The notes below the pieces were generated by a model. It searched no databases and was not told the DNA's origin. It saw only the letters and a list, made by a program, of their open reading frames with translations. Made by a program: the position numbers and the translations under genes. Positions 11,026 to 53,024 of a stretch of 64,000 nt of DNA are shown piece after piece. The DNA is from Trypanosoma brucei (taxonomy: Eukaryota), in assembly GCA_000002445.1 (NCBI GenBank), contig CP000067.1:1120001-1184000 (forward strand), in the 5' to 3' direction. How positions within the stretch are numbered: position 1 is the first letter of the stretch; the number at the start of each line of letters is the position of its first letter.

Positions 11026-12382
11026 GACCTACACCTAAAACAAGACAGCATAAATAATTACAGTATTTGGGAAAGGAAGGAGAGCCATGTGTGAACCAGT
11101 CGGAAAATGTATCAACGGCAACATGACCTGCACAGAGTTACTGAAGCCACGGTGTGAGCAACAGCTAGCATTTAAGGAGGGGGAAATATAACACCTATGG
11201 GAATAAGTAACGCTTACACAATGTGAAAGGAGGGTTGCAGGAGACTACAGCCAGTGCAAATGGACACAAGAGTCCTTGCTGCCGCTTTTCATAACACAAT
11301 CCAACACACAATGCAATGACTCGAGAAACCCCAACACTTCACCAGCACCTGCGGAAGCTACGGGCGTGTGTGCATGTGTGTGCACAATTTGGGGAACTCG
11401 GGCCTGACACAGACAGGATGGCAGGTAATGATAGAGTGGGAGGATTACCGCATTCCAGCAACTCTACAATGGAATAAACTTGATTCGATACCTTGCATCA
11501 ACAACTCAAACTCTCTAAATTTTTGTGAGACGCAGATGGGAAGTGAAGGAACGTGTATTCGGTGATGATGTTAAAACTAGATAAGATTTTGTGATGCACA
11601 TGTAGTTATGTTAAAAAAGAAAAAAAATATCGAGGGCTTCCTGGTGGCAAAAGTTTACCAACCCCCCATCCCCCTAAAAAAAAAAGATTTCACCGTGCAA
11701 CAGATGTGAAACTGCAGTAAATATTGAGAACTTCCCGTCATTCACACTGCGCACTATGACACCGGTTAGCTTATCTTGCTATCAGGGTCTGAAACTTTAT
11801 GTGGGAGGTGGCTAACATTTAGAGCTTTCTTCACGATATTCAGAAATGACACTGACAGAAAGCTGGTGATTACGAAAGGAGCAACGTATATTACTAGCGG
11901 TGTTCTTCAGGGGAATGTATGATCCGTGAGTATACGCCCCTGCATGTGTAAATGGATTGATTCATTTTGCGTGCTAACTCTTTTCTACTTTTCCAGAAAG
12001 TGACTTAGGTTGTGGCACCACAAAGCCGTTCCGGCGTATTAAAATTATGATGGAAAAGAAAGGAGAGGGAAATAGCCTGACTAACATTTGGGGCACCTTA
12101 TCCATGGAAGGGATCCAAACGTTGTAAAAAAACAAGTCACTGCCACTGACTCACATTGGTATTTGCCGGATAACCTCACCGTGCTCCACGGCTGTACGTA
12201 CGGTAACAAGACAAAGATTAGCACATGAAAACAAAGAAAAATTTAAGTTCTTTTAAAAAATACCCATGTTAGGAATATAACACTCTCACGACAAGAAAAA
12301 AGAAAATCTGCGGTACCTTGCATCAACAACTCAAAATCAATTTAAAAAAATATATGTGTTCACGTTCGAATTCGTGTTCGCC

Positions 12383-13537
12383 CTACAAACAACTCATTTC
12401 CCGGAGAGGTCCCTGGCTGCCCGTTAGCGAGCGGTGCGAGATGTTCTTCTCATTGTTGAACCGCCGCCTCAACTCGTTGTAGTCACTCTCATTTACATGG
12501 TGTACCATAATGGAGCTTTTTGTCACGGCTCCCAACGTTGTACCGGCGTGCACATCGTGAAACGAGCACTTAGGCTCGTGAACGTAGGTTATATTCGTAT
12601 GATACATGGCCCTCCGCAATGTAATCCCTACCATTGCGTCTTCAACCATGACACAGAGAGACTGGAACTCTTCGTCACGTATTGCTGTGTAGGGGACGTG
12701 GATTATTGTTCGAAGGGGCTTATACGAGACAAAACGTTCCGCGACGTCACGTCCTAGAGTATAGCACGCGCCATAAGCATAATTAAATCGGAAACCTTGC
12801 ACGGTGTGCACGTCTATCGTACCCCAGTATAGCCCACGGCGAGGTAGGTTGCGTAAGTCTGCTAGATACTGAGGAACGCGTAGGAACATATCGTCATCTG
12901 CCTTCGCAATATACGGGGCATACGGAAATAAGCACACTGACATGTCAAACCACAAGAATGTCTTGCGGCTCATGCCAATCTCCGCATCAATGCCCCACTT
13001 CCCACCTTGACCCACACGCTTCCTACCTGACGGCCGGCCCTCGTTCATTGGCAACGTTAAGATGTCACTCCATTGAGTAGCTTCCTCCACCAGTGCCTTG
13101 GTATAAGTGTAGCCATTTTCGGGATGTCGCGCAAGGATGTACAGCGGCAGCATTTCACCAGAGAAACCGTTCGCACGTACTGCAACGCCGGCGTATGTCC
13201 AGCATGCTGCCCGTTGCAGGTCGCGGCGGCGCCGTCTCACGTCCAGGTCTATGGAGGGGATGCCGATTACCACCAAGTACCGTCGCTCCTCCCATGCGCT
13301 AACGACGGGAGCTGGGACGTAAGTTAGCGACTGTTTCACCCACAGAGGGCGTTTCCAGTAGGTGCAGCGTTCGGTGATTTTTTTTCTTTCCCGGCGTCTA
13401 ACTCGTTCCACATCCTCTAGGAGCGTCCTGAAAGTAACAATCGCCGCGGACACTGCCAAGAGAATAATGATAAGCCAATACCTCCGCTTGTGTGCTGTAC
13501 ATCTTCCAATCCGATTTCCCCGAAGCGCGGGGGCCAT
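12383..13537 (-). CDS. Glycosyltransferase, array copy 2
   Basis: 384 aa. Differs from copy 1 by a single R->G (NRIGRC vs NRIRRC). Confidence 0.75.
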   Translation of the reverse strand: MAPALRGNRIGRCTAHKRRYWLIIILLAVSAAIVTFRTLLEDVERVRRRERKKITERCTYWKRPLWVKQSLTYVPAPVVSAWEERRYLVVIGIPSIDLDVRRRRRDLQRAACWTYAGVAVRANGFSGEMLPLYILARHPENGYTYTKALVEEATQWSDILTLPMNEGRPSGRKRVGQGGKWGIDAEIGMSRKTFLWFDMSVCLFPYAPYIAKADDDMFLRVPQYLADLRNLPRRGLYWGTIDVHTVQGFRFNYAYGACYTLGRDVAERFVSYKPLRTIIHVPYTAIRDEEFQSLCVMVEDAMVGITLRRAMYHTNITYVHEPKCSFHDVHAGTTLGAVTKSSIMVHHVNESDYNELRRRFNNEKNISHRSLTGSQGPLREMSCL

Positions 13538-14583
13538 AACTACACATCAAAGGCGTTCATATTTGAGAATCCAGTGGAGTTGAGGGGGCGTAGAGACCCT
13601 ACTGTCGGTGATAAGTTGACGTAAAAAGTACAGCCGCTGTGGAAGCAAACATCGTTACCCAACGAACGTACACAAAAACGGAAACGAAACGACCAAAACT
13701 GCTGGACCAACGTGTCAGAAAACAATAATCATGACATGAAAGTAAGCCCAACTCACGGCCATGCAAGTATTCACACATACGAAAACAACAAAAATAACGT
13801 CGCCTGAAAAAAAAAAAAACCAAACAATAGTAAGAAGTTACTTCAAGATATCAACCTGAATCCGCTGCGCATGTAAGCGCTGCTAGAGAGCAAAACGTAA
13901 TAAAGAAAAAAAAACGTGCCACAAAATAGCAAAAGGTGAATTTATTACTCGCTAGATATGGGGGGAAAAAGCGAGCGACTGTCGTAGCCATTCTTTTAAT
14001 TCAGCCCTGGTACACGTCCATTTACTTAACAGGGGAGAGGCATCGCCTCATCGTCGAAAATACCCACAAAACGGAGGTTTAAGAACTCTAGATGGATAAA
14101 AGCTCGATCCACAGTGGCTGTGTGGTAAGTGGCATGACACGCTATTCAACCCAATAATAAGGTAAAAATTAACAAACAAAAGGTTCTGAGCAAAGCATAC
14201 ACTGCATACAACCACCCCGGCAAGCAACAAACCGCGCAGAGGATTTGGCACGATACCAAGAAATGGTACAGGTACAATAAAATTAGATTTAGGGCTCACA
14301 CACTTTAGTAAGCACAAACAAGCACCACGTCTTGACTACAGTTCGCGAACAATTTCGTCAAGTACGTACAAACCAACAATCACCATAGTTCTATCTTCCT
14401 CCCGCATATTTACATTTGATGAATTTTTCTACGAAGTTTCGCCACCGTAATATGCAGAACGCCTAACTCATTCACACATATTGGAGACGTACATAATCAA
14501 TGGTCTTTCTGTGCGCACATATGCGTTGAGGTTATGCTCTACACAACAAGGGTTGGCACAAAGGTCTCCCCATGTGGATAAAA

Positions 14584-15576
14584 TCATTGTCCTGCAGCGG
14601 CAGACTTCGATCTCACACAAACACGCTGGGGAGGAATGGAGGGGCCAGTTTCTGTTAATGTGTCATCTTTCTGCTGTCGACTATGCCGAGTCTCAGTTCG
14701 AGATGCCACCCCAACATTACCTTTCGCTACCTTCGAGAAACCCGTAAATGCACCGAAGGCTGATGAGCCCCGCAACCTTGGATATGGCATTCCACTTAGC
14801 CGACGCGAGGCACCCCACAAAGATGTGGTAGTGTTACATTTCGTGGAGTGAGTAGCATGTGACCGGCAGTTTTTGATATCTCTTAACACCTCATGGGATG
14901 CCTTTACGAAGCCACTGAAGGACGGCTTTTGCCGCACAACCTCACCATCCATCTTACTGCGCTCACTCGGGTTCTCTGTGAGTGCACCAACAGCTGTACG
15001 TTCCTCCAATTGTACTGTATTGGGAAGTGGCGGAGGCTCAACGGGGTACACATGTGTTGCCGTCTGCTGCACATCGTCACCTTTGATCTTACATTCAGGA
15101 GACACACCCTTCAGGTTGGTTTCCACAGCTTGTTTTCCATTGCTTACAGCCGGTTTCACTTTTCGGTCAGTGTGTTTCCTGCATACTTGTGCTGTGCGTT
15201 CCGTGGCAGACGGAAGTACATCCTCACACACATGACCTTTGCTACAGCTCACATCACTCTTTTGTTCGCACGGAGGTGTAGGTGGTTCACTGCAAAGGAC
15301 TCGCGTCTGACTTCTTTCCCGCCCTTTACAGTAGTATTCCTCATGGGCCGCTAACCTTGCCATCTCTACTTCCATACCACAGCACGAGCATTCTACCAAT
15401 TGTTGCCCACAGCGGCTGATGTGTTCACTACAGCCAAAACGCCTACAATAGGGGCACTTGCGAAGATTTTTGGGCAGTAAATCAGAACTTTTCCGCTTCG
15501 TAGGGTCACGCACAAGAGCACCATTGTACTTCCAGGGTGCACCACTCGTTACAGTTGTCTTGCTCTCCGTTTCCAT
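14584..15576 (-). CDS. C2HC zinc-finger hypothetical protein, array copy 3
   Basis: 330 aa. One K->R difference (EVLRDIKN) relative to copies 1 and 2. Confidence 0.5.
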   Translation of the reverse strand: METESKTTVTSGAPWKYNGALVRDPTKRKSSDLLPKNLRKCPYCRRFGCSEHISRCGQQLVECSCCGMEVEMARLAAHEEYYCKGRERSQTRVLCSEPPTPPCEQKSDVSCSKGHVCEDVLPSATERTAQVCRKHTDRKVKPAVSNGKQAVETNLKGVSPECKIKGDDVQQTATHVYPVEPPPLPNTVQLEERTAVGALTENPSERSKMDGEVVRQKPSFSGFVKASHEVLRDIKNCRSHATHSTKCNTTTSLWGASRRLSGMPYPRLRGSSAFGAFTGFSKVAKGNVGVASRTETRHSRQQKDDTLTETGPSIPPQRVCVRSKSAAAGQ

Positions 15577-16108
15577 GACCTACACCTAAAACAAGACAGC
15601 ATAAATAATTACAGTATTTGGGAAAGGAAGGAGAGCCATGTGTGAACCAGTCGGAAAATGTATCAACGGCAACATGACCTGCACAGAGTTACTGAAGCCA
15701 CGGTGTGAGCAACAGCTAGCATTTAAGGAGGGGGAAATATAACACCTATGGGAATAAGTAACGCTTACACAATGTGAAAGGAGGGTTGCAGGAGACTACA
15801 GCCAGTGCAAATGGACACAAGAGTCCTTGCTGCCGCTTTTCATAACACAATCCAACACACAATGCAATGACTCGAGAAACCCCAACACTTCACCAGCACC
15901 TGCGGAAGCTACAGGCGTGTGTGCATGTGTGTGCACAATTTGGGGAACTCGGGCCTGACACAGACAGGATGGCAGGTAATGATAGAGTGGGAGGATTACC
16001 GCATTCCAGCAACTCTACAATGGAATAAACTTGATTCGATACCTTGCATCAACAACTCAAAATCAATTTAAAAAAATATATGTGTTCACGTTCGAATTCG
16101 TGTTCGCC

Positions 16109-17266
16109 CTACAAACAACTCATTTCCCGGAGAGGTCCCTGGCTGCCCGTTAGCGAGCGGTGCGAGGTGTTCTTCTCATTGTTGAACCGCCGCCTCAACT
16201 CGTTGTAGTCACTCTCATTTACATGGTGTACCATAATGGAGCTTTTTGTCACGGCTCCCAACGTTGTACCGGCGTGCACATCGTGAAACGAGCACTTAGG
16301 CTCGTGAACGTAGGTTATATTCGTATGATACATGGCCCTCCGCAATGTAATCCCTACCATTGCGTCTTCAACCATGACACAGAGAGACTGGAACTCTTCG
16401 TCACGTATTGCTGTGTAGGGGACGTGGATTATTGTTCGAAGGGGCTTATACGAGACAAAACGTTCCGCGACGTCACGTCCTAGAGTATAGCACGCGCCAT
16501 AAGCATAATTAAATCGGAAACCTTGCACGCTGAGCACGTCTATCGTACCCCAGTATAGCCCACGGCGAGGTAGGTTGCGTAAGTCTGCTAGATACTGAGG
16601 AACGCGTAGGAACATATCGTCATCTGCCTTCGCAATATACGGGGCATACGGAAATAAGCACACTGACATGTCAAACCACAAGAATGTCTTGCGGCTCATG
16701 CCAATCTCCGCATCAATGCCCCACTTCCCACCTTGACCCACACGCTTCCTACCTGACGGCCGGCCCTCGTTCATTGGCAACGTTAAGATGTCACTCCATT
16801 GAGTAGCTTCCTCCACCAGTGCCTTGGTATAAGTGTAGCCATTTTCGGGATGTCGCGCAAGGATGTACAGCGGCAGCATTTCACCAGAGAAACCGTTCGC
16901 ACGTACTGCAACGCCGGCGTATGTCCAGCATGCTGCCCGTTGCAGGTCGCGGCGGCGCCGTCTCACGTCCAGGTCTATGGAGGGGATGCCGATTACCACC
17001 AAGTACCGTCGCTCCTCCCATGCGCTAACGACGGGAGCTGGGACGTAAGTTAGCGACTGTTTCACCCACAGAGGGTGCTCTGAGAGATGTTGACCTTTAT
17101 TGGCTATAGCTGTTTTCGGAACGTTGATTTCCCTTTTGCCGGCTCTCTCTGAGTTGTTGGAGAGCGTTGTCAAGAGAGATGTGACAACGCATATGGTAAA
17201 GAGCAATACCGTCAAAGAAATGCTGCTGCGCAGTATTCTTCCGCGACTGTTAAATTGCCTACACAT
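16109..17266 (-). CDS. Glycosyltransferase, array-edge copy with an unrelated N-terminal cytoplasmic/anchor/stem region
   Basis: 385 aa. From PLWVKQSLTY onward it is ~99% identical to copies 1 and 2, including ADDDMFL. The first ~63 aa (MCRQFNSRGRILRSSISLTVLLFTICVVTSLLTTLSNNSERAGKREINVPKTAIANKGQHLSEH) are unrelated to the MAPALRGN... N-terminus of the other copies, yet still contain a hydrophobic signal-anchor. The DNA junction is at ~17076. Confidence 0.7.
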   Translation of the reverse strand: MCRQFNSRGRILRSSISLTVLLFTICVVTSLLTTLSNNSERAGKREINVPKTAIANKGQHLSEHPLWVKQSLTYVPAPVVSAWEERRYLVVIGIPSIDLDVRRRRRDLQRAACWTYAGVAVRANGFSGEMLPLYILARHPENGYTYTKALVEEATQWSDILTLPMNEGRPSGRKRVGQGGKWGIDAEIGMSRKTFLWFDMSVCLFPYAPYIAKADDDMFLRVPQYLADLRNLPRRGLYWGTIDVLSVQGFRFNYAYGACYTLGRDVAERFVSYKPLRTIIHVPYTAIRDEEFQSLCVMVEDAMVGITLRRAMYHTNITYVHEPKCSFHDVHAGTTLGAVTKSSIMVHHVNESDYNELRRRFNNEKNTSHRSLTGSQGPLREMSCL

Positions 17267-17685
17267 TATATAGAGGTGACTGTCTTTTGAAAGTATAGTA
17301 GAATAGTGAGAGTGTTGGTGTAGTAAATAGCGGGTTCTAACGATCGTATGCGCGTTCTTGTTGATGTTTTTTTCTGTTAATTTGCCGATATAACAGTAAG
17401 GTGGAGGGGAATTGCCTCACTTTGATGATTTGCTTTTCCTCTGCATCACTGTGTGCATGTAACGTTACAGCAGGATACGCTGTTTGTGGTGGTTGTCCTC
17501 TTTTGAGCTATTCGCTCTTTTTTCCCTCAGCGAAATGTAGCACCTTGACCCTCCCATTTACAATTCTCTCTGATGTCGAGTTAAGTTGGATCGCTGTGAT
17601 GGTAGTGCGGTCTTCTCTGTTTGTTCGGAGGTCATTGCAAAGAACTCCGGCTCTTTAACCAAGTCTCCTTTTTTCCCCCCTCTCA

Positions 17686-19536
17686 TCAGCGTTGAGTTCT
17701 CAGAACTGCATCGGCAGCGTCACCTGCTCTACGACGTAGCGGAAGGAACCCAAAGCGATAAAGCGTGTACGATACAGAGTAGCAGCGTGGGTAGAGCTGT
17801 GTCAGTTCATCACCTTCTTCAATGCGACTATTTGCACGAACTACTGCACACACCGCCTCCTTGCACATTCCGGCAGTATTGGCGACCTTGTTACTATCAT
17901 TTGAGAGTGAAATCTTCTCTATACTGCAGCTTGTATTTGACATACCTCCTGGTGGGTGCTGAAGCATATCTACTATGGGAACGATTGTCGCTATTGTATG
18001 GGGCTGAAAATCATTCACGCCGACACGGTTACGGTCGACAACCCTGAAAATGTTGTCCATGACGCCCATATGCATTTTTGTTATCAGACGTGTCCATAGA
18101 TGTAGTTTCTGAAGCACTTTTTCTTCGCTGCAAATGTCCTCGAAATGCTCAGTATGTCGTCGGAGGGGAAGAAGTCGCTGACGTGATAAAACAACACGTA
18201 GCGCCCACGTCAGATCATCCATTGATGGTGGCGGGAGCCGACCAGGAGTGGTGCACTGCGTTTTCCCTTCTTCGATGGGAGATCTCGCATTCACCACATC
18301 GTTGCCATCATTCGGTGATACGGAGCCGTCGACAGAGGAGACCTCTCCCGCACCAGAGCAAACAGCACTCTCATACTCCTGTTGCCATCTGTTACGGATT
18401 TGACGAAGGTAATGAGAGAATCTGCCACAGTGGTCAGTGTATTCAAGATGTGTCGCTGGGTCAAGCACCCCAAGGTGCAACTCCCGTATGAAGTCGTCGT
18501 CGAACGGAGAGAGAAGCCGCAAGTAAGAAAACAGGGGACTTTTGGCTCCCTCCGCACGCTCGCAGGCCAGAAGCAGGGCGAAATGTACCTGGTCGACGAA
18601 AAGTGGATGTGGAAGTGGATCGAACGAAGACTTTCGTTGACCAACAATCGCTTCCACACTTTGATACGAAGGAACACCGCGGCGTTGCGCCGCCACCGAG
18701 TGCCGTTGGAGATTCTCTGAATTGATCGTCAAACTCCAGGGCGTAAGGTTACCCTCGGAGGCAACTGAGGGTGCCGGTGAAGATGGCACAAACTCATCCG
18801 CGCTATCTGCCCCCAAAGCACCATAGAGAGGCACTGCGAATATCATGTCACCTTTGTGGAACGGTTTGCGTGCGACTAAGCCACGAGAATACTGCGATCG
18901 CAGATGAAAGTCAACGTTGTCCGTGAGCATGTTCCACAGCACTGTTTGCGAGCTCTTTATCAGCTCCTCACGAAACCATGCAAGAAAGTCCTGCACATGG
19001 TCCTCGGGCACCGTTCCCATACTATCAGTTGATATCCAATTCTCCACCCGGATGCGTTGCCTCCCCAGCTGTGGGGAAGTGAGGCTTGAGGCCCACATGG
19101 GGAGAGGCGCCTTCGGCGAATTGTTGGGAACCTCGTACACAGACAATGCGTCCGGAGGATGTCGTTCACTTGGGTCACTAAGGAACGAGAATTTTGGTTT
19201 ACGATACACTGCTGGCGGCAGCTCTTCCTCTGCCAACGGTGCTACCGCCGCTAGTGTTGCAATTCGCGGCGCGAACATTTCCTTCTTCCTTATAGTAGAT
19301 TGTACCTCCTCCGCCTGAAGGGAGGAGCCTGCTTGAGGTTCCACGCTTTCCAACGCAACGCGCAGCTGTTCATTCATTTCAACTTGCTGCCGCGCAGCAA
19401 TACCACAATTTGCGGGGTCACGTTCTTCATACGATACAAGCCTCTTTGAGGCATACCACACATCTCGTCTGAGTGGCACAAACGAAGAAGTTGCCACTCG
19501 TCTCCACATTGATAGAAGCGCATCCCTCTTCCTCAT
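17686..19536 (-). CDS. SET-domain protein (rubisco-LSMT/SETD-like lysine methyltransferase), putative
   Basis: 616-aa ORF. SRGLVARKPFHKGDMIFAVPL resembles the N-terminal SET motif GRGLxAxRxIxxGExLxxVP. HPPGGMSNTSCSIEK and RIEEGDELTQLY resemble the NHSxxPN and GEEL/ELxxxY C-terminal SET motifs. Motif-based only. Confidence 0.5.
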   Translation of the reverse strand: MRKRDALLSMWRRVATSSFVPLRRDVWYASKRLVSYEERDPANCGIAARQQVEMNEQLRVALESVEPQAGSSLQAEEVQSTIRKKEMFAPRIATLAAVAPLAEEELPPAVYRKPKFSFLSDPSERHPPDALSVYEVPNNSPKAPLPMWASSLTSPQLGRQRIRVENWISTDSMGTVPEDHVQDFLAWFREELIKSSQTVLWNMLTDNVDFHLRSQYSRGLVARKPFHKGDMIFAVPLYGALGADSADEFVPSSPAPSVASEGNLTPWSLTINSENLQRHSVAAQRRGVPSYQSVEAIVGQRKSSFDPLPHPLFVDQVHFALLLACERAEGAKSPLFSYLRLLSPFDDDFIRELHLGVLDPATHLEYTDHCGRFSHYLRQIRNRWQQEYESAVCSGAGEVSSVDGSVSPNDGNDVVNARSPIEEGKTQCTTPGRLPPPSMDDLTWALRVVLSRQRLLPLRRHTEHFEDICSEEKVLQKLHLWTRLITKMHMGVMDNIFRVVDRNRVGVNDFQPHTIATIVPIVDMLQHPPGGMSNTSCSIEKISLSNDSNKVANTAGMCKEAVCAVVRANSRIEEGDELTQLYPRCYSVSYTLYRFGFLPLRRRAGDAADAVLRTQR

Positions 19537-47178: not shown

Positions 47179-48173
47179 AAGGAAAATACCTGATCATCAA
47201 AAAAAGGAAGGGGGAAAATGAGAAGACAAAAAAGACAATTTCCAACCATTCAGACACATAATCAAAACTGCCTCCATCGCCTCTCCACACACATCATCAT
47301 TCATGTATCCGATACAAAAACATAAAACATCACTAGGCACAAGAGTAAATGTGTAAATAGAGCATTATAATATCATAGACTGGATGCCAGTAACAAAAAC
47401 AAAGCACACTAGCAGTCACAGTTAACATTCAACTGGCAACAGCATGGCAGACATTGTTCAGTTTCATATTCCTTGGTTGTCTAAAGGTAAAATAGAAAGA
47501 ATGGGTCTGAGGGAATATGAGGAAAGTTACAATAAGCATATGGAAACATGCAGGAAGCTATGCACAGGTATTAGATGTTGTAAATAGTTGTCGGCAGCAG
47601 TTTCATTTGAGAAGTACCTCTCACAAGCCAAAATCTCCAAAGGAGAAATGTAAAAAGGGATTGAAGCAAACACGGAAAATAAACACCAGATGATAGTTTT
47701 ACTTCATGGCAACCCCCACTTCACGGGTTTCACCTTCTTATCGTACACATCTTTAGGTGTATGAACACAACTGATAACAACACTTTAAGGATAGAGAAAG
47801 TCACATAGCAACCCAAACAAAATTAATTAATAAAATCGATTGAAAACTTAACACTGAAAAAAAAAAGATAATAAAAAACTGTAAAAACATATGTGTTTCC
47901 ATCCAATTCCACACCAAAAACAAGAAGATTTGCGATCTTCAAACACAGTTCTCAAAAGGAGAGTACCCATGTCAGAAATGGAAAGCGTCTTTATCTACAG
48001 AGATATTTTAAGCACCCACCATATGAGGAGATTATTGCGTACACAAAAAAGAAAAAAATTAATGGCCACTTTATACAAAATAAATCTAAAGAAAAGATTG
48101 CACACATGATGTAAAATAACTTATTCATTCACTTCAATAGCAAAGCGCACATATAGCAATGTTACGGGGAATA

Positions 48174-51100
48174 TTAGCTGGCAGCGCTAACATTATCCAA
48201 GTCAATCAATTGCACGCCGCTACAATCACCTTCACCGCAGAAGGAATTGGAGGATGAAGAAAGCATTATAGCAGCTGCAACCCCCCCGAGTGAGAAGAAA
48301 CTTCCGCCCCTTTCAAAGGAAGGCACACTACCAGAGGTATTTCTCGTTCCAAAATCCATAACACAACCCACCTTCGCAGCAATCCGACGAGTGACACAGC
48401 GGCAACTGGCTTCATTCCAAGCATCCATACCTGGGGGTTTCTTAACACGCCAACGCTCACAAAAAGTTGCAAGCATCTTCTGTCGCTGGGTAGCAGGGAA
48501 TGTGCCAAGCAGAGCATCAATACAACCAGCAACTTGTTGGGCAGTGGCAGTTAAACCACGTTCAGGAGATCCCGACCCACTGGTGATACTACCAGTTACA
48601 TTATCTTCTTCCTCCTCAAATTCACGGTCAAGGCGCAGAGCAGCAAAGGTACGGCCAGGTACAGCATTCAACTGGTACATTTCCACAGGCTTCGGCACAC
48701 CACGTAGCGGCACATCACCCAAAGGCGTTACATTAAGTTGCTCACGCTCTTCACCACTCAGTGACAGGTATGTTGAGCGCGTCATCAGCACCTGACCACC
48801 GTTACCAACACTCTCCGTGCGTGCTGCCATGTTGGATGTGCGTCCATAATAGTCGTAACCTTTCGTTACTTCATCATGACGAATATCACACAATCCAGTA
48901 TGAATCCCCACACGTACACGCAACCCATTCCACAGTTGCCGATAAACCTCAGGGTCCAGGCTCGCAGTTGGTGGTGTGTAATCACTGTCATCTTCCGCAC
49001 GCTTTCGTTCGAATTCACGGTAAGACTCATCAAGCTCAGTGGTCTTCCAGTCATGGTTTAGAAAATCACGTTGCAAGTCACATGCGAGTTGTGCAGCAGC
49101 GAAGGGACTTTTACACGCAATCATAAAAGAGTCTCCAACAGTTTTCACTTCGTAGCACTCATACCGTGTGATGAGGGAGCGGATCAAACGGTGATGTGTT
49201 GCCACAAGGTCAGGCATTTGCTCAGGGTGTGCTGCCCACTGCGCTGTACTGCTCTCGATGTCAGTGAATATTAATGTTACGGGGTCTGTTGGTTCCTTGG
49301 GAGCATTATTATTGTCACGGGCGTTCCGGCGTGATGCCGATACAAGTACCAGAACCGTAACAAACAGTGCCAATACAACAACGCAGCTGACTGCAATAGC
49401 AGCAATGTGTCCTCTCTTAAGTCGAAACCCTTCTGTGTCACCGTATTTCATCGAGGGTGTGACGTGAGTCACCACAGGAGACACGGAAGGATTCAGAACA
49501 CGTGACATCGACCATACAGAAATATGCGTCGCACCATAGTTCACAGCACAGTGTTTCTCTTCAAATGAAGCCCCGTTAGTACACTTGTCATCAAAAGGAC
49601 CATATCGCATATCATCAACTGTAATGACAGATTGGCTGAAGATGGCGTCTACAAGTTCCTCCGGCGTTACATGTCCCATACGTTGCAGGATATTTATCAT
49701 TGCACGTGCGGTGACATATCCAAGTAATGACAATGGCTTCCACTTCGACTCATCTCGTACAACTCTGTGGAACTCACGTACCATATCGGATTTTGTGTTC
49801 TTATCTCCCCAATGTGGCAGATTCGTTGCGAATAGCAGACGGTCAGCAAATGGCTTGTCACGGAAGGCACTCACAAGTTCATCATAGAGTAACGCAACAT
49901 CAAAGAACGGGACAAAGATACGCACATTATGGTGTTTGCCAAGGTGAGAGAGGATTATGGGGATATCATCTGAGATGAGACCTGCAACTAATACCTCACC
50001 TGCAGTCGGTAGCTTGTCTCTCAAAGTAGAACCTTCACCACTCGCAACAAAGGAGCTTAATGACGATTCAAAGAAGTCAAGTGTTTTTTGCAACACTTTC
50101 CTAACTCCTCTCGTATCACCACTACGCACAATGGCATGCATCTTTCCAGCACCATTTTGTATGATATGCTCAACTATCACGAATAGTTGTTGCTCAAGTG
50201 TTGGTGACAGGTGGATCACATTCCTTCTGGGGTTACTCAGTTGTGGTGTGAGTGTTATGGGATCGATGAATGCCATACCCTTCGTCGACAGTAACGAATC
50301 ATCCACAACACCAAACACAGCAGTTACAACTCGCTTCTCCACTTCATCATACAGAGCTGTAGAAGTGTCATGAGATTTCGAGGATAGCCAGTGTAAAAAG
50401 AATCTATCAGAGTGACCAAGTTGACCCTTTCCAACAACATAAAAGGCACCATCGTATATTGCCTCTGCAGTACGCAGTGCCTTTGGGTCATCAGTTAGTT
50501 TAAACATGATGCCACTCAATGGGGCGTACAGCTGTGACAGGTCTCTATAGCAGCGAGATGAAGTAAGAGCTAATACACCTTCCTTCATAGGGTACAGACG
50601 GAGATCCTTTCCCATCTTCTTCATGTACACCACATTCCCACCCTGATTACATAAACATGATGCACCCCGCTCACCCGCCATACCACGGCACTCACCACCA
50701 AAGTCACCAACAACAATATCATCAATTACATAACGACGTTGATTGTAAAGTGATGTAATAAATGCATCCCTGCTAGTTAGCCATTCGCGACAACTCAGTG
50801 CTTGTTTCAATACCTCTCCAGCAATCCATCCGTCAACCATCAGCTCAGCTTCAGTGTCTTGCTCGGTGAAGTTGCTTTCGTCAACATTTAGGTTAACATT
50901 CCATTGTCCAGTGCCACTCAGAATATCTTTCTTTTCCTTCAGGTACTTTGCCATATCACCCTTGAATCGTTTGATTGCATCATAGCCATCATCCTTCGCA
51001 AGTGGATTAGTCCCAGTTATTATTATCTTATCAGGCACAAACCTGTCTCTACCCAATTCCTTTTCCCACTTATTCTCAATGACATATTGGAGTGTAGAGG

Positions 51101-51908
51101 GTATGAGCAAATATCCACCTTTTGTCCTTTCATCTTCTAATGATTTCATTAGGAATTTCTTCGTATCATTGATTGGAGAGCCAAATACAATCACACCCTG
51201 AGGTCGAGTATTTGCAAACTTATTCCACTCCGCACTGAAGCTACTGTCATCCGATTCCTTACCAATTTGACTCTTCAATGCAAAAACACCGCACAGTTTG
51301 CGATCCATCCGTGTTGTCAATTCCACAGCAAGCTCATATTCATCATCACCATAAGAAACATCTTTCAAGTACATGAAACCCAGCCGATGTAACCGTAACT
51401 GAGTGATAGCATAACGGAGAAGAGCAAGCATCTCAGCAGCGGGTGATGCTGTCAGGAAGTACAGATTAGGATTCCAACTGCGTACCTTACTGGATCCTGT
51501 GAGGGGTGAGAAACTAATCACATTCTTTTCTTTGAAATATTTCAAGAGACCTAGAGTGTTTTTATCACCCACAGGTCCCAGTATAACAGGGAGTTCCTTA
51601 CCATCATGGGTTGTCATGTGTTTCCCGAGATAGTCAGCATATTTAGAATCATCCATGGGGGGAACATATACCACTTCCACATTAGCACCCGACGGCGTGT
51701 TTCCGTTGGTAATGGATGCGTTGAAGCCTGCAGTAATAGGATCATATATCTTTGCTGAAATCTTGTTACTGTATAACATGTTGTATACCTTCACCTGTAT
51801 TTTATCATTTGCAAGTGATGATGCAGTCAGCACCTGTAGTAACAGAGAAAACACTAGGTAAGTGAATGCACCATCTCTAACATACAATTCACGCATGAAG
51901 GTAACCAT
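48174..51908 (-). CDS. GRESAG4: Receptor-type adenylate cyclase (GRESAG4-like), array copy 1, intact
   Basis: 1244 aa. Signal peptide MVTFMRELYVRDGAFTYLVFSLLLQVLTASSLA. A large extracellular domain, then a single TM IAAIAVSCVVVLALFVTVLVLV. Cytosolic class III cyclase catalytic domain (VTLIFTDIESSTAQW...YEVKTVGDSFMIACKSP...GIHTGLCDIRHDEVTKGYDYYGRTSNMAARTESVGNGGQVLMT). This architecture is characteristic of trypanosome ESAG4/GRESAG4 cyclases. There are no expression-site neighbours, so a chromosome-internal GRESAG4-type copy is more likely than ESAG4. Confidence 0.9.
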   Translation of the reverse strand: MVTFMRELYVRDGAFTYLVFSLLLQVLTASSLANDKIQVKVYNMLYSNKISAKIYDPITAGFNASITNGNTPSGANVEVVYVPPMDDSKYADYLGKHMTTHDGKELPVILGPVGDKNTLGLLKYFKEKNVISFSPLTGSSKVRSWNPNLYFLTASPAAEMLALLRYAITQLRLHRLGFMYLKDVSYGDDEYELAVELTTRMDRKLCGVFALKSQIGKESDDSSFSAEWNKFANTRPQGVIVFGSPINDTKKFLMKSLEDERTKGGYLLIPSTLQYVIENKWEKELGRDRFVPDKIIITGTNPLAKDDGYDAIKRFKGDMAKYLKEKKDILSGTGQWNVNLNVDESNFTEQDTEAELMVDGWIAGEVLKQALSCREWLTSRDAFITSLYNQRRYVIDDIVVGDFGGECRGMAGERGASCLCNQGGNVVYMKKMGKDLRLYPMKEGVLALTSSRCYRDLSQLYAPLSGIMFKLTDDPKALRTAEAIYDGAFYVVGKGQLGHSDRFFLHWLSSKSHDTSTALYDEVEKRVVTAVFGVVDDSLLSTKGMAFIDPITLTPQLSNPRRNVIHLSPTLEQQLFVIVEHIIQNGAGKMHAIVRSGDTRGVRKVLQKTLDFFESSLSSFVASGEGSTLRDKLPTAGEVLVAGLISDDIPIILSHLGKHHNVRIFVPFFDVALLYDELVSAFRDKPFADRLLFATNLPHWGDKNTKSDMVREFHRVVRDESKWKPLSLLGYVTARAMINILQRMGHVTPEELVDAIFSQSVITVDDMRYGPFDDKCTNGASFEEKHCAVNYGATHISVWSMSRVLNPSVSPVVTHVTPSMKYGDTEGFRLKRGHIAAIAVSCVVVLALFVTVLVLVSASRRNARDNNNAPKEPTDPVTLIFTDIESSTAQWAAHPEQMPDLVATHHRLIRSLITRYECYEVKTVGDSFMIACKSPFAAAQLACDLQRDFLNHDWKTTELDESYREFERKRAEDDSDYTPPTASLDPEVYRQLWNGLRVRVGIHTGLCDIRHDEVTKGYDYYGRTSNMAARTESVGNGGQVLMTRSTYLSLSGEEREQLNVTPLGDVPLRGVPKPVEMYQLNAVPGRTFAALRLDREFEEEEDNVTGSITSGSGSPERGLTATAQQVAGCIDALLGTFPATQRQKMLATFCERWRVKKPPGMDAWNEASCRCVTRRIAAKVGCVMDFGTRNTSGSVPSFERGGSFFSLGGVAAAIMLSSSSNSFCGEGDCSGVQLIDLDNVSAAS

Positions 51909-51929
51909 GATACTGGTAACTCAACGTAA

Positions 51930-51995
51930 TCCAACGTGAAAACTACAAGACAAAAAGGGAATAATAACAAAGTATTGGTACAGGATTAAGAGACT
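51930..51995 (-). promoter_or_regulatory. Probable polypyrimidine tract / trans-splice acceptor region upstream of AC copy 1; equivalent blocks lie upstream of copies 2 and 3
   Basis: The plus strand here is purine-rich (caagacaaaaagggaataataacaaag), so the minus-strand pre-mRNA is pyrimidine-rich. It begins only ~20 nt upstream of the 51908 start codon; the AG dinucleotide between them was not resolved. The same sequence recurs at ~56790-56830 and ~61640-61680. Inferred from general trypanosomatid mRNA processing. Confidence 0.35.
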
Positions 51996-53024
51996 GCATA
52001 TGTACAGATATGTTGGATTGTGACACAATAAGAGTCCATATGATAATTGTATATAAGAGTGTAGGAAAGGGAACTATTATGATGGATAGCGTTATATAAA
52101 CCATAACAGTGAGAAAGTAATTCAACATACATTCCCCTATACACACATCATTCATGTATCCGATACAAAAACGTAAAACATCACTAGGCACAAGAGTAAA
52201 TGTGTAAATAGAGCATTATAATATCATAGACTGGATGCCAGTAACAAAAACAAAGCACACTAGCAGTCACAGTTAACATTCAACTGGCAACAGCATGGCA
52301 GACATTGTTCAGTTTCATATTCCTTGGTTGTCTAAAGGTAAAATAGAAAGAATGGGTCTGAGGGAATATGAGGAAAGTTACAATAAGCATATGAAAACAT
52401 GCAGGAAGCTATGCACAGGTATTAGATGTTGCAAATAGTTGTCGGCAGCAGTTTCATTTGAGAGATACCTCTCACAAGCCAAAATCTCCAAAGGAGAAAT
52501 GTAAAAAGGGATTGAAGCAAACACGGAAAATAAACACCAGATGATAGTTTTACTTCATGGCAACCCCCACTTCACGGGTTTCACCTTCTTATCGTACACA
52601 TCTTTAGGTGTATGAACACAACTGATAACAACACATTAGAGGTAGAACCTCACTTGACCACAGCACACACAAACGGCAATTTAAGCTTATTTAACTAATA
52701 AATGTATTATTTAAAAGAGTGAGATAATCAAAAGTGGTATGGGTGCTCACATCCAATTCCACACCAAAAACAAGAAGATTTGCGATCTTCAAACACAGCT
52801 ATCAAAAGGAGAGTACCCATGTCAGAAATAGAAAGCGTCTTTATCACAAAGATATTTAAATCACCCACCATATGAGGAGATTCTTGTATTTACAAAAGTA
52901 AAAAAAAAATTAATGGCCACTTTATACAAAATAAATCTAAAGAAAAGATTGCACACATGATGTAAAACAACTTATTCATTCACTTCAATAGCAAAGCGCA
53001 CATACAGCAATGTTACGGGGAATA

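What the first reader, a model, noticed from the sequence alone, without database searches (positions are those of the whole stretch)
16036..16062. ~825-bp deletion in the third array unit, bounded by a 22-bp direct repeat
Within each full unit the motif taccttgcatcaacaactcaaa occurs twice, ~825 bp apart, at 6935-6956 and 7760-7781 in unit 1. In unit 3 a single fused copy sits at 16040-16061. Its left flank (ttgattcgat) comes from the first repeat and its right flank (atcaattta) from the second. The intervening spacer, equivalent to 6957-7781, is gone. This is the classic footprint of recombination or replication slippage between short direct repeats. It shows that the spacer segment is dispensable.
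Basis: seen in the sequence. Interest (0 to 1): 0.5.

Follow-up and report, generated by a model that had tools for sequence, protein, structure and literature searches.

The report
825-bp intergenic indel in trypanosome gene array
One copy of a repeated glycosyltransferase gene block on Trypanosoma brucei chromosome 4 really does lack 825 bp of non-coding spacer, with a single copy of a 22-bp repeat at the junction; this is an ordinary, old DNA-repair scar, and it cannot yet be said whether the spacer was lost from this copy or gained by the others.

Summary
The 22-mer occurs twice, 825 bp apart, in units 1 and 2, and once in unit 3. Removing 6957-7781 from unit 1 in silico reproduces unit 3 with 7 mismatches in 2866 bp.

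The window is T. brucei TREU927 chromosome 4. The array consists of gene pairs on the minus strand: a GT67-type glycosyltransferase and a 330-aa hypothetical protein. "Unit 3" is the first unit in the direction of transcription, and its glycosyltransferase has a different N-terminus. The missing 825 bp is non-coding spacer that starts 69 nt after the glycosyltransferase stop codon, so the intergenic region is 532 bp instead of 1357 bp.

The short junction is not an assembly artefact. It recurs in DAL972, IVM-t1 and an independent read-set contig. Four further contigs break exactly at the repeat, which implies both forms are present in those read sets. The flanks evolve in concert within each lineage while the indel persists, so the indel is old.

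The deletion reading fits documented microhomology-mediated repair in T. brucei, but its direction is unproven. A sharp 22-bp repeat cannot pre-exist by chance, so a gain in the internal units is a serious rival. "Dispensable" is not shown. Interest is low.

The parts
5105..17075 (-). Tandem array with a period of 4554 bp: two full units (5105-9658, 9659-14209) and one partial edge unit (14210-17075). The genes are read on the minus strand, so unit 3 is first in the direction of transcription.
   Evidence: Self-BLAST, the repeat finder, boundary sequences.
16040..16061 (.). Single ('fused') copy of the 22-nt repeat at the short junction, 47 nt downstream of the GT385 stop codon.
6935..6956 (.). 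Repeat copy in unit 1, distal to the GT gene and 463 bp upstream of the ATG of the 330-aa gene.
7760..7781 (.). Repeat copy in unit 1, 47 nt downstream of the GT384 stop codon.
11489..11510 (.). Repeat copy in unit 2 (distal).
12314..12335 (.). Repeat copy in unit 2 (proximal to the GT stop codon).
6957..7759 (-). The 803-bp segment found only in internal units (unit 1). It is non-coding, rich in T and in polypyrimidine tracts on the sense strand, and has four polyY+AG sites.
   Evidence: 12-20 stop codons in every frame; no Rfam match; no other copy in the window; polyY scan.
11511..12313 (-). The same 803-bp segment in unit 2, 100% identical to the unit 1 copy.
16109..17266 (-). GT385: the array-leading glycosyltransferase (AAZ11020). 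Its N-terminal ~63 residues are unrelated to those of GT384.
7829..8983 (-). GT384 glycosyltransferase of unit 1 (Pfam Galactosyl_T; the source names it 'UDP-Gal or UDP-GlcNAc-dependent glycosyltransferase').
12383..13537 (-). GT384 of unit 2 (differs from the unit 1 copy by one residue).
5479..6471 (-). 330-aa conserved hypothetical gene, unit 1.
10033..11025 (-). 330-aa conserved hypothetical gene, unit 2.
14584..15576 (-). 330-aa conserved hypothetical gene, unit 3 (K-to-R variant, AAZ11019).
8796..9658 (-). Segment found only in internal units ('Y'): the GT384 N-terminal coding part plus 675 bp of upstream spacer. It is repeated at 13350-14209 and absent from the single-unit assemblies.

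Best explanation
Shown:
- This is a real and evolutionarily old 825-bp length difference in the non-coding spacer between the glycosyltransferase gene and the downstream 330-aa gene, in the T. brucei chromosome 4 GT/hypothetical-protein tandem array.
- The array-leading unit (GT385) has a 532-bp spacer with one copy of a 22-nt sequence.
- The internal units (GT384) have a 1357-bp spacer in which that sequence flanks an 803-bp unique, non-coding segment.

Inferred, most likely direction:
- The leading unit lost the segment when a double-strand break inside it was repaired by annealing of the two repeat copies. This is microhomology-mediated end joining, or micro single-strand annealing, the dominant end-joining route in trypanosomes, which lack classical NHEJ. 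One repeat copy and everything between the copies was removed.
- Because it lies in the edge unit, the short form was neither erased nor spread by the gene conversion that keeps both flanks nearly identical among units.
- The three polypyrimidine/AG sites nearest the 330-aa gene are retained, so trans-splicing of that gene should still work. Polyadenylation of GT385 is coupled to those sites, so it should work too. The visible consequence is a GT 3' UTR/spacer about 0.8 kb shorter for the GT385 isoform.

Confidence that the indel is real and not an artefact is about 0.95. Confidence in the deletion direction is about 0.5.
For: - Exact junction anatomy.
- Repeat of 22/22, or 26/28 when extended. 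This resembles the substrates reported for T. brucei MMEJ: 5-20 bp, mismatches tolerated in longer stretches, and a perfect 18-bp microhomology used 953 and 961 bp either side of a break (PMC3045614).
- The 803-bp segment looks like native trypanosome intergenic DNA in the orientation of transcription: 33% T, four polyY+AG sites on the sense strand, no ORFs, no RNA family. It does not look like a foreign insert.
- The short junction occurs in independent assemblies of other T. brucei subspecies and in a read-set contig that continues into a GT384 unit.
- Four GT384 contigs from other read sets end at the last base of the repeat, as expected if the assembly graph branches into both forms there.
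- The flanks group by lineage rather than by unit type, so the indel predates the lineage split and sits where edge-unit variants persist.
Against: - Deletion needs the exact 22-bp repeat to have been there already. Chance expectation is effectively zero (about 1e-7 analytically for a 1.4-kb spacer), and the flanks of the two copies are unrelated. The repeat must therefore come from an earlier duplicative event, which makes 'gain only' the more parsimonious count of events.
- The proximal repeat lies only 47 nt past the stop codon. That is close to where GT-centred homogenisation ends in T. congolense, as expected if the two homogenised blocks merely overlap in the first unit.
- No outgroup resolves the direction.
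- The T. equiperdum OVI contig places the long form after GT385. However, it is a k=33 short-read assembly, has a run of N inside the segment, and cannot phase across the 1039-bp identical GT block.
Confidence: 0.5

Rival explanations
1. Gain rather than loss. The short junction of the leading unit is the unmodified arrangement. The internal units are mosaics that carry an internal-unit-specific 803-bp stretch, either old unit-specific spacer or captured DNA. The 22-28-bp repeat was created by the event that joined this stretch to sequence copied from the first unit. Candidate events are one-sided homologous-recombination/microhomology gene conversion, or a target-site-duplication-like insertion. 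The internal unit was then amplified.
For: - It explains the origin of a sharp exact repeat with unrelated flanks in a single event.
- T. congolense has the same array plan: a first GT with its own N-terminus, then further GT plus H330-like pairs. There, only the GT coding block is homogenised, while the spacers and downstream genes are unit-specific. Unit-specific spacer in T. brucei internal units is therefore expected.
- Internal units also carry another private segment, 8796-9658.
- One-sided MMEJ gene conversion is documented in T. brucei (PMC3045614).
- The short form is the one seen after GT385 in TREU927, DAL972 and IVM-t1.
Against: - There are no mobile-element hallmarks: no terminal poly(A) on either strand, no coding remnant, and no second copy in the window, in the chromosome 8 paralogous array or in the T. 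congolense loci.
- The junction on the distal side offers only 2 nt of microhomology followed by a mismatch, which is a poor primer for templated copying.
- It requires two separately bounded homogenised blocks that overlap by exactly the repeat.
- The single-unit assemblies are probably collapsed. IVM-t1 had only 7,508 PacBio reads, and ERR034315 shows a GT384 unit after the short one. They therefore say nothing about ancestry.
Confidence: 0.37
2. Assembly artefact: the short junction was produced by collapse or mis-joining at the 22-bp repeat in the reference assembly, and all units are in fact full length.
For: Tandem arrays with 99.7% identical 4.5-kb units are hard to assemble. The array is clearly mis-assembled or collapsed in other genomes (N-run in OVI; single unit in DAL972 and IVM-t1).
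Against: - The identical junction is present in three other independent data sets made with different technologies.
- Graph breaks at the repeat in four more read sets indicate both continuations.
- Unit-3-specific substitutions lie 128 bp to one side (15913) and 106 bp to the other (16167) of the junction, within the span of one Sanger read.
- Overlap assemblers do not join reads on 22 bp.
Confidence: 0.03
3. Both spacer forms are ancient and are held in place by selection, as isoform-specific 3' UTRs for GT385 and GT384. The repeat would then be a functional cis-element retained in both contexts, and not a repair scar.
For: - The dimorphism persists across lineages while both flanks are repeatedly homogenised.
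- The two GT isoforms differ in their N-terminal region in both T. brucei and T. congolense.
- From general knowledge of the field, trypanosome gene regulation is largely driven by 3' UTRs.
Against: - The motif is not found in the T. congolense loci, in the chromosome 8 paralogous array or elsewhere in the window, even allowing 5 mismatches.
- No structured-RNA signal was found.
- No expression data were examined.
Confidence: 0.1

Closest known systems
Microhomology-mediated end joining / micro-SSA deletions in Trypanosoma brucei (Glover, Jun and Horn 2011, PMC3045614)
   Same: A single copy of a short direct repeat is left at the junction, and the flanks are collinear with the undeleted form. 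The deletion size is within the reported range (up to 948 bp from natural microhomologies, about 1.9 kb with a perfect 18-bp one). The authors also reported natural footprints of this kind in VSG expression sites.
   Different: Here the repeat is longer (22 exact, 26/28 extended) than the typical 5-20 bp. The event is natural, old and located in a chromosome-core housekeeping array. Its direction (loss or gain) is not established.
[quoted passage not shown]
   Same: It would produce a mosaic unit with homologous recombination at one end and a short-homology junction at the other. This is the kind of event needed for the 'gain' rival.
   Different: That mechanism leaves one microhomology at one junction. 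Here, a 22-nt sequence is duplicated on both sides of the extra segment.
Target-site duplications of trypanosome retroposons (ingi/RIME)
   Same: A unique-looking segment is bracketed by a perfect short direct repeat that is present once at the 'empty' site.
   Different: There is no poly(A) or A-rich tail abutting the repeat, no coding remnant and no other copy found. The 22-28-bp duplication is much longer than the ~12-bp duplications I recall for ingi/RIME (from memory, not tested).
Concerted evolution of trypanosomatid tandem gene arrays, including the chromosome 4/8 glycosyltransferase arrays noted by Jackson 2007 (PMC2212663)
   Same: Head-to-tail units are ~99.7% identical and homogenised in a lineage-specific way, with a divergent edge unit. 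The array itself is already described as a tandem glycosyltransferase array.
   Different: This particular spacer indel, and its stability across lineages, is not mentioned in the papers read.

Membership tests
Short-direct-repeat (MMEJ/SSA-type) deletion footprint | One repeat copy at the junction; the left flank comes from one parental repeat and the right flank from the other | tested here: met
   virtual deletion reproduces unit 3 (7 mismatches in 2866 bp).
Short-direct-repeat (MMEJ/SSA-type) deletion footprint | Repeat length and quality in the range used by the organism's repair pathway | tested here: met
   22/22, or 26/28 extended, against 5-20 bp with mismatches tolerated and an 18-bp perfect case (PMC3045614). 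This is at or just above the upper end of the range.
Short-direct-repeat (MMEJ/SSA-type) deletion footprint | The longer form is ancestral (polarity) | tested here: inconclusive
   T. congolense spacers cannot be aligned. Both forms coexist in both T. brucei lineages sampled. The OVI contig cannot phase the units.
Retroposon insertion with target-site duplication (ingi/RIME/SIDER-like) | Poly(A) or A-rich 3' end abutting the downstream duplication | tested here: not met
   The segment ends ...AAGAAAAAAGAAAATCTGCGG on the + strand and ...CACAAAAATTTAGAGAG on the - strand.
Retroposon insertion with target-site duplication (ingi/RIME/SIDER-like) | Multiple copies in the genome, or coding remnants of reverse transcriptase/endonuclease | tested here: not met
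   No other copy in the 64-kb window or in the fetched loci. There are 12-20 stop codons per frame and the longest open stretch is 58 codons. A whole-genome search was not possible with these tools.
Tandem gene array under concerted evolution | Head-to-tail units, near-identical within a genome, with substitutions shared by unit types within a lineage | tested here: met
Assembly collapse artefact | The junction is confined to one assembly, with no independent read support | tested here: not met
   The junction is present in DAL972, IVM-t1 and ERR034315. Branch-point contig ends are seen in ERR7929157, ERR7929159, ERR7929161 and ERR7929162.
GT67/beta3-glycosyltransferase family (identity of the flanking gene) | Galactosyl_T domain above the Pfam cut-off, and close homology to trypanosome UDP-Gal/UDP-GlcNAc-dependent glycosyltransferases | tested here: met
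   PF01762 at 27.7 bits against a cut-off of 23. Homologues are so named by NCBI, and the sequence is an exact match to AAZ11016/18/20. Enzyme activity was not tested.

The most novel reading that the evidence does not exclude
The short/long spacer difference is not a neutral scar. It would be a conserved, selected device that gives the array-leading GT385 isoform and the internal GT384 isoforms different 3' UTRs, and so different stage-specific expression. Alternatively, the 803-bp segment, with its four polyY/AG sites, could be processed into a separate non-coding transcript. In either case the 22-nt repeat would act as a cis-element.
Probability: 0.1. Interest if true: 0.45.

Novelty: new member of a known kind. 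Interest (0 to 1): 0.2.

Why it matters
- It is a clean natural example, in a chromosome-core array of the T. brucei reference genome, of the short-repeat-mediated rearrangements that MMEJ studies predict shape compact trypanosomatid genomes.
- It shows that an indel can survive for a long time between two flanks that are continually homogenised.
- It gives a unit-specific PCR or long-read marker for phasing this array, which is collapsed or mis-joined in several public assemblies.
- It flags that two glycosyltransferase isoforms with near-identical coding sequence have very different downstream spacers. This matters for anyone interpreting RNA-seq or designing knock-outs at this locus.
- It does not change any general concept.

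Tried and rejected
- **Rfam.** A search of 4500-18000 at E<=1 gave nothing.
- **Other copies of the 803 bp or of segment Y.** A sensitive blastn found none elsewhere in the window. None was found in the chromosome 8 paralogous GT array L011, where only the coding sequence matches at 66%.
- **T. congolense spacers.** Matches were no better than shuffled controls, so T. congolense gives no outgroup polarity.
- **Hidden homology around the two repeat copies.** None was found, which rejects 'relic of an older large duplication'.
- **An apparent 3% divergence of the 803 bp between TREU927 and OVI.** This was a run of 26 N in the OVI contig; outside it the segment is identical. The lead was rejected.
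- **Exact-protein look-ups.** Look-ups for the unit 3 proteins, P0003 and a 53-aa ORF inside the 803 bp found nothing on record. The CutA1 look-up, meant to bring in more assemblies, returned only the OVI contig again.
- **Inverted repeats or hairpins in the spacer that might trigger breaks.** None was found.
- **Single-unit assemblies (DAL972, IVM-t1) as evidence that short is ancestral.** Considered and rejected: they are probably collapsed.

Full report
**1. The observation**

The 22-mer TACCTTGCATCAACAACTCAAA occurs at 6935, 7760, 11489, 12314 and 16040 on the + strand. It occurs nowhere else in the window, even with three mismatches, and none of 100 shuffles gave a match.

Self-BLAST defines a tandem array from 5105 to 17075 with a period of 4554 bp:
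- 5105-11510 matches 9659-16061 at 99.8%.
- 5105-6956 matches 14210-16061.
- 7757-8795 matches 16037-17075.

Splicing 5105-6956 directly to 7782-8795 gives a 2866-bp sequence that differs from unit 3 (14210-17075) at only seven positions.

The repeat can be extended to 26 of 28 positions if one mismatch is allowed on each side of the exact core. Beyond that, 150 bp on either side of the two copies show no similarity above shuffled controls.

**2. What the locus is**

All ORFs of the array lie on the minus strand. Each unit carries two genes:
- a 330-aa protein with no Pfam domain;
- a 384-aa protein with a Galactosyl_T domain.

The proteins are exact matches to consecutive GenBank entries AAZ11015 to AAZ11020 of Trypanosoma brucei brucei TREU927. 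The sources name them 'hypothetical protein, conserved' and 'UDP-Gal or UDP-GlcNAc-dependent glycosyltransferase'. The neighbours (H+-pyrophosphatase, GRESAG4 adenylate cyclases) and Jackson 2007 place the window on chromosome 4. [quoted passage not shown]

Its glycosyltransferase (GT385, 16109-17266) has an N-terminal ~63 residues unrelated to those of the internal GT384 copies. Homology begins at 17075/8795.

**3. Where the 825 bp lies**

The missing segment is in the spacer between the glycosyltransferase stop codon and the ATG of the 330-aa gene. The proximal repeat copy starts 47 nt after the stop, and the distal copy lies 463 bp upstream of the ATG. The spacer is 1357 bp in units 1 and 2 and 532 bp in unit 3.

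The 803 unique bases have these properties:
- They are identical in units 1 and 2.
- They have 12-20 stop codons in every frame.
- They match no Rfam family.
- They are T-rich on the sense strand, with four polypyrimidine tracts followed by AG. This is what ordinary trypanosome intergenic DNA looks like in the direction of transcription.

The three polypyrimidine/AG sites closest to the 330-aa gene are in the shared 463 bp and are retained in the short form. I infer that processing of the downstream mRNA is unaffected, and that the main consequence is a 3' UTR/spacer about 0.8 kb shorter for GT385. No expression data were examined.

**4. Real or artefact**

The same short junction, with identical flanking sequence, is present in several independent data sets:
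- T. b. gambiense DAL972 (L003).
- T. equiperdum IVM-t1 (L002).
- A Logan contig from run ERR034315 (L004). This contig carries the junction-specific 31-mer and continues through the 330-aa gene into the internal-unit segment and GT384. In that sample, therefore, a short unit is followed by an internal unit just as in the window.

Four contigs carrying GT384 from runs ERR7929157, ERR7929159, ERR7929161 and ERR7929162 all end at the last base of the repeat. This is where a k=31 graph must branch if both continuations (…GGTA|C and …GGTA|T) are present.

In the window, unit-3-specific substitutions lie 128 bp and 106 bp on either side of the junction. Assembly collapse is therefore very unlikely.

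The other assemblies do not settle copy number or phasing:
- DAL972 and IVM-t1 show a single unit. IVM-t1 had only 7,508 PacBio reads, and ERR034315, which shares the same lineage alleles, shows an array.
- The OVI contig puts the long form after GT385. However, it is a Velvet k=33 assembly of 2x150 reads with a run of 26 N inside the segment, and it has to cross 1039 bp that are identical between GT385 and GT384.

**5. Age**

I aligned the two shared blocks across units and strains: S1 (7757-8795 type) and S2 (5105-6956 type). The variable sites group sequences by lineage, with TREU927 and OVI on one side and DAL972, IVM-t1 and the Logan samples on the other. They do not group by unit type, GT385-linked against GT384-linked. 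Both flanks have therefore been homogenised within each lineage after the lineages split, while the short and long junctions persisted in both. The indel is old relative to T. brucei diversification and is not a private accident of the reference strain.

**6. Outgroup**

T. congolense IL3000 has the same plan: the 616-aa gene, then a first glycosyltransferase with its own N-terminus, then two more glycosyltransferases, each followed by a gene sharing the N-terminal region of the 330-aa protein. There, only about 1 kb of glycosyltransferase coding sequence is homogenised (94-97%). Homology stops 46-90 nt before the stop codons, and the spacers (315, 355 and 881 bp) and the downstream genes are unit-specific.

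The array is thus ancient, and unit-specific spacers are the ancestral condition. None of the T. brucei spacer segments aligns to any T. congolense spacer better than shuffled sequence does. The chromosome 8 paralogous array shares only coding sequence. Direction therefore cannot be read from an outgroup.

**7. Mechanism**

T. brucei lacks reported NHEJ and repairs chromosomal breaks by homologous recombination or MMEJ (micro-SSA). The published features of MMEJ in this organism are (PMC3045614):
- microhomologies of 5-20 bp, with mismatches tolerated in longer stretches;
- deletions of up to 948 bp in total from natural microhomologies;
- use of a perfect 18-bp microhomology lying 953 and 961 bp either side of the break.

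An 825-bp deletion between 22/22 (26/28) repeats fits this well. It is my preferred reading, at about 0.5.

Its weakness is that it needs the repeat to pre-exist. A sharp-edged exact 22-mer duplicated 825 bp apart, with unrelated flanks, has a chance expectation of about 1e-7 for a spacer of this size. Some earlier duplicative event must have made it.

The rival (about 0.37) needs only one event. In this reading the internal units are mosaics: an internal-unit-specific stretch was joined to sequence copied from the first unit, and the copy overlapped the end of the glycosyltransferase-centred homology block by 22-28 bp. One-sided HR/MMEJ gene conversion of this general kind is documented in the same paper. 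The T. congolense pattern, and the position of the proximal repeat close to the stop codon, are as that model expects.

Against the rival:
- The extra segment has no mobile-element features.
- No donor was found.
- The distal junction has only 2 nt of microhomology before a mismatch.

**8. 'Dispensable'**

The evidence shows only that a unit without the segment has been tolerated for a long time at the head of the array. Every internal unit seen keeps the segment, 100% identical between units 1 and 2 and identical in OVI outside the N-run. The unit that lacks it encodes a different isoform. Dispensability of the segment for the internal units is untested.

**9. Verdict**

This is a confirmed, real and old short-repeat-bounded indel in the spacer of a known tandem array of a well-studied reference genome. 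It is an ordinary member of a known kind of repair footprint, with unresolved polarity and modest possible regulatory relevance. Interest is 0.2.

Noticed in passing
window 47289-63955 (continues to the window end): A second tandem array with a period of ~4850 bp and 93-97% identity between units. It encodes receptor-type adenylate cyclases of 1243-1244 aa (Pfam Guanylate_cyc plus periplasmic-binding-like domains, i.e. GRESAG4-type). The copy at 53025-56752 is split into two overlapping ORFs (812 and 439 aa), which suggests a frameshifted pseudogene or a sequence error.
   Followed up: partly
window 8796-8983 and 17076-17266; L009 812-2023, 4803-5927, 9067-10161: In both T. brucei and T. congolense, the first glycosyltransferase of the array has its own N-terminal (tail/membrane anchor/stem) region, while the catalytic part is homogenised with the following copies. 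The homology boundary falls at the equivalent position in both species. This suggests the distinct N-termini are maintained by selection.
   Followed up: partly
L001 about 9330-9355 (T. equiperdum OVI contig CZPT02000398.1): A run of 26 N sits inside the 803-bp segment. The contig links GT385 to the long spacer across 1 kb of sequence shared with GT384, so the OVI assembly of this array is not reliable. The N-run briefly mimicked 3% divergence.
   Followed up: yes
L002 and L003 8310-14669: The DAL972 and IVM-t1 assemblies show a single GT385/330-aa unit running straight into the RRM-protein gene. A read-set contig with the same lineage alleles (L004) shows a GT384 unit after the short unit, so these single-unit assemblies are probably collapsed arrays.
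   Followed up: partly
L011 1648-7583 (IVM-t1 CM010679.1): The closest paralogous locus has three glycosyltransferase copies in tandem with a period of ~2.5 kb and no 330-aa gene between them. It is presumably the chromosome 8 duplicon described by Jackson 2007. Only the coding sequence (66% identity) is alignable with the chromosome 4 array.
   Followed up: partly
window 7829-8983 and 12383-13537: The two otherwise identical GT384 copies differ by one residue near the N-terminus (R11 in unit 1, G11 in unit 2). The 330-aa copies of units 1 and 2 are identical, and the unit 3 copy has one K-to-R change.
   Followed up: no
window 200-800 and 1213-1675: Long purine-rich (A/G) tracts and (AT)n and (AC)n microsatellites lie in the spacer to the left of the RRM-protein gene. 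On the transcribed minus strand the purine tracts read as long polypyrimidine runs, typical of trypanosome intergenic regions.
   Followed up: no
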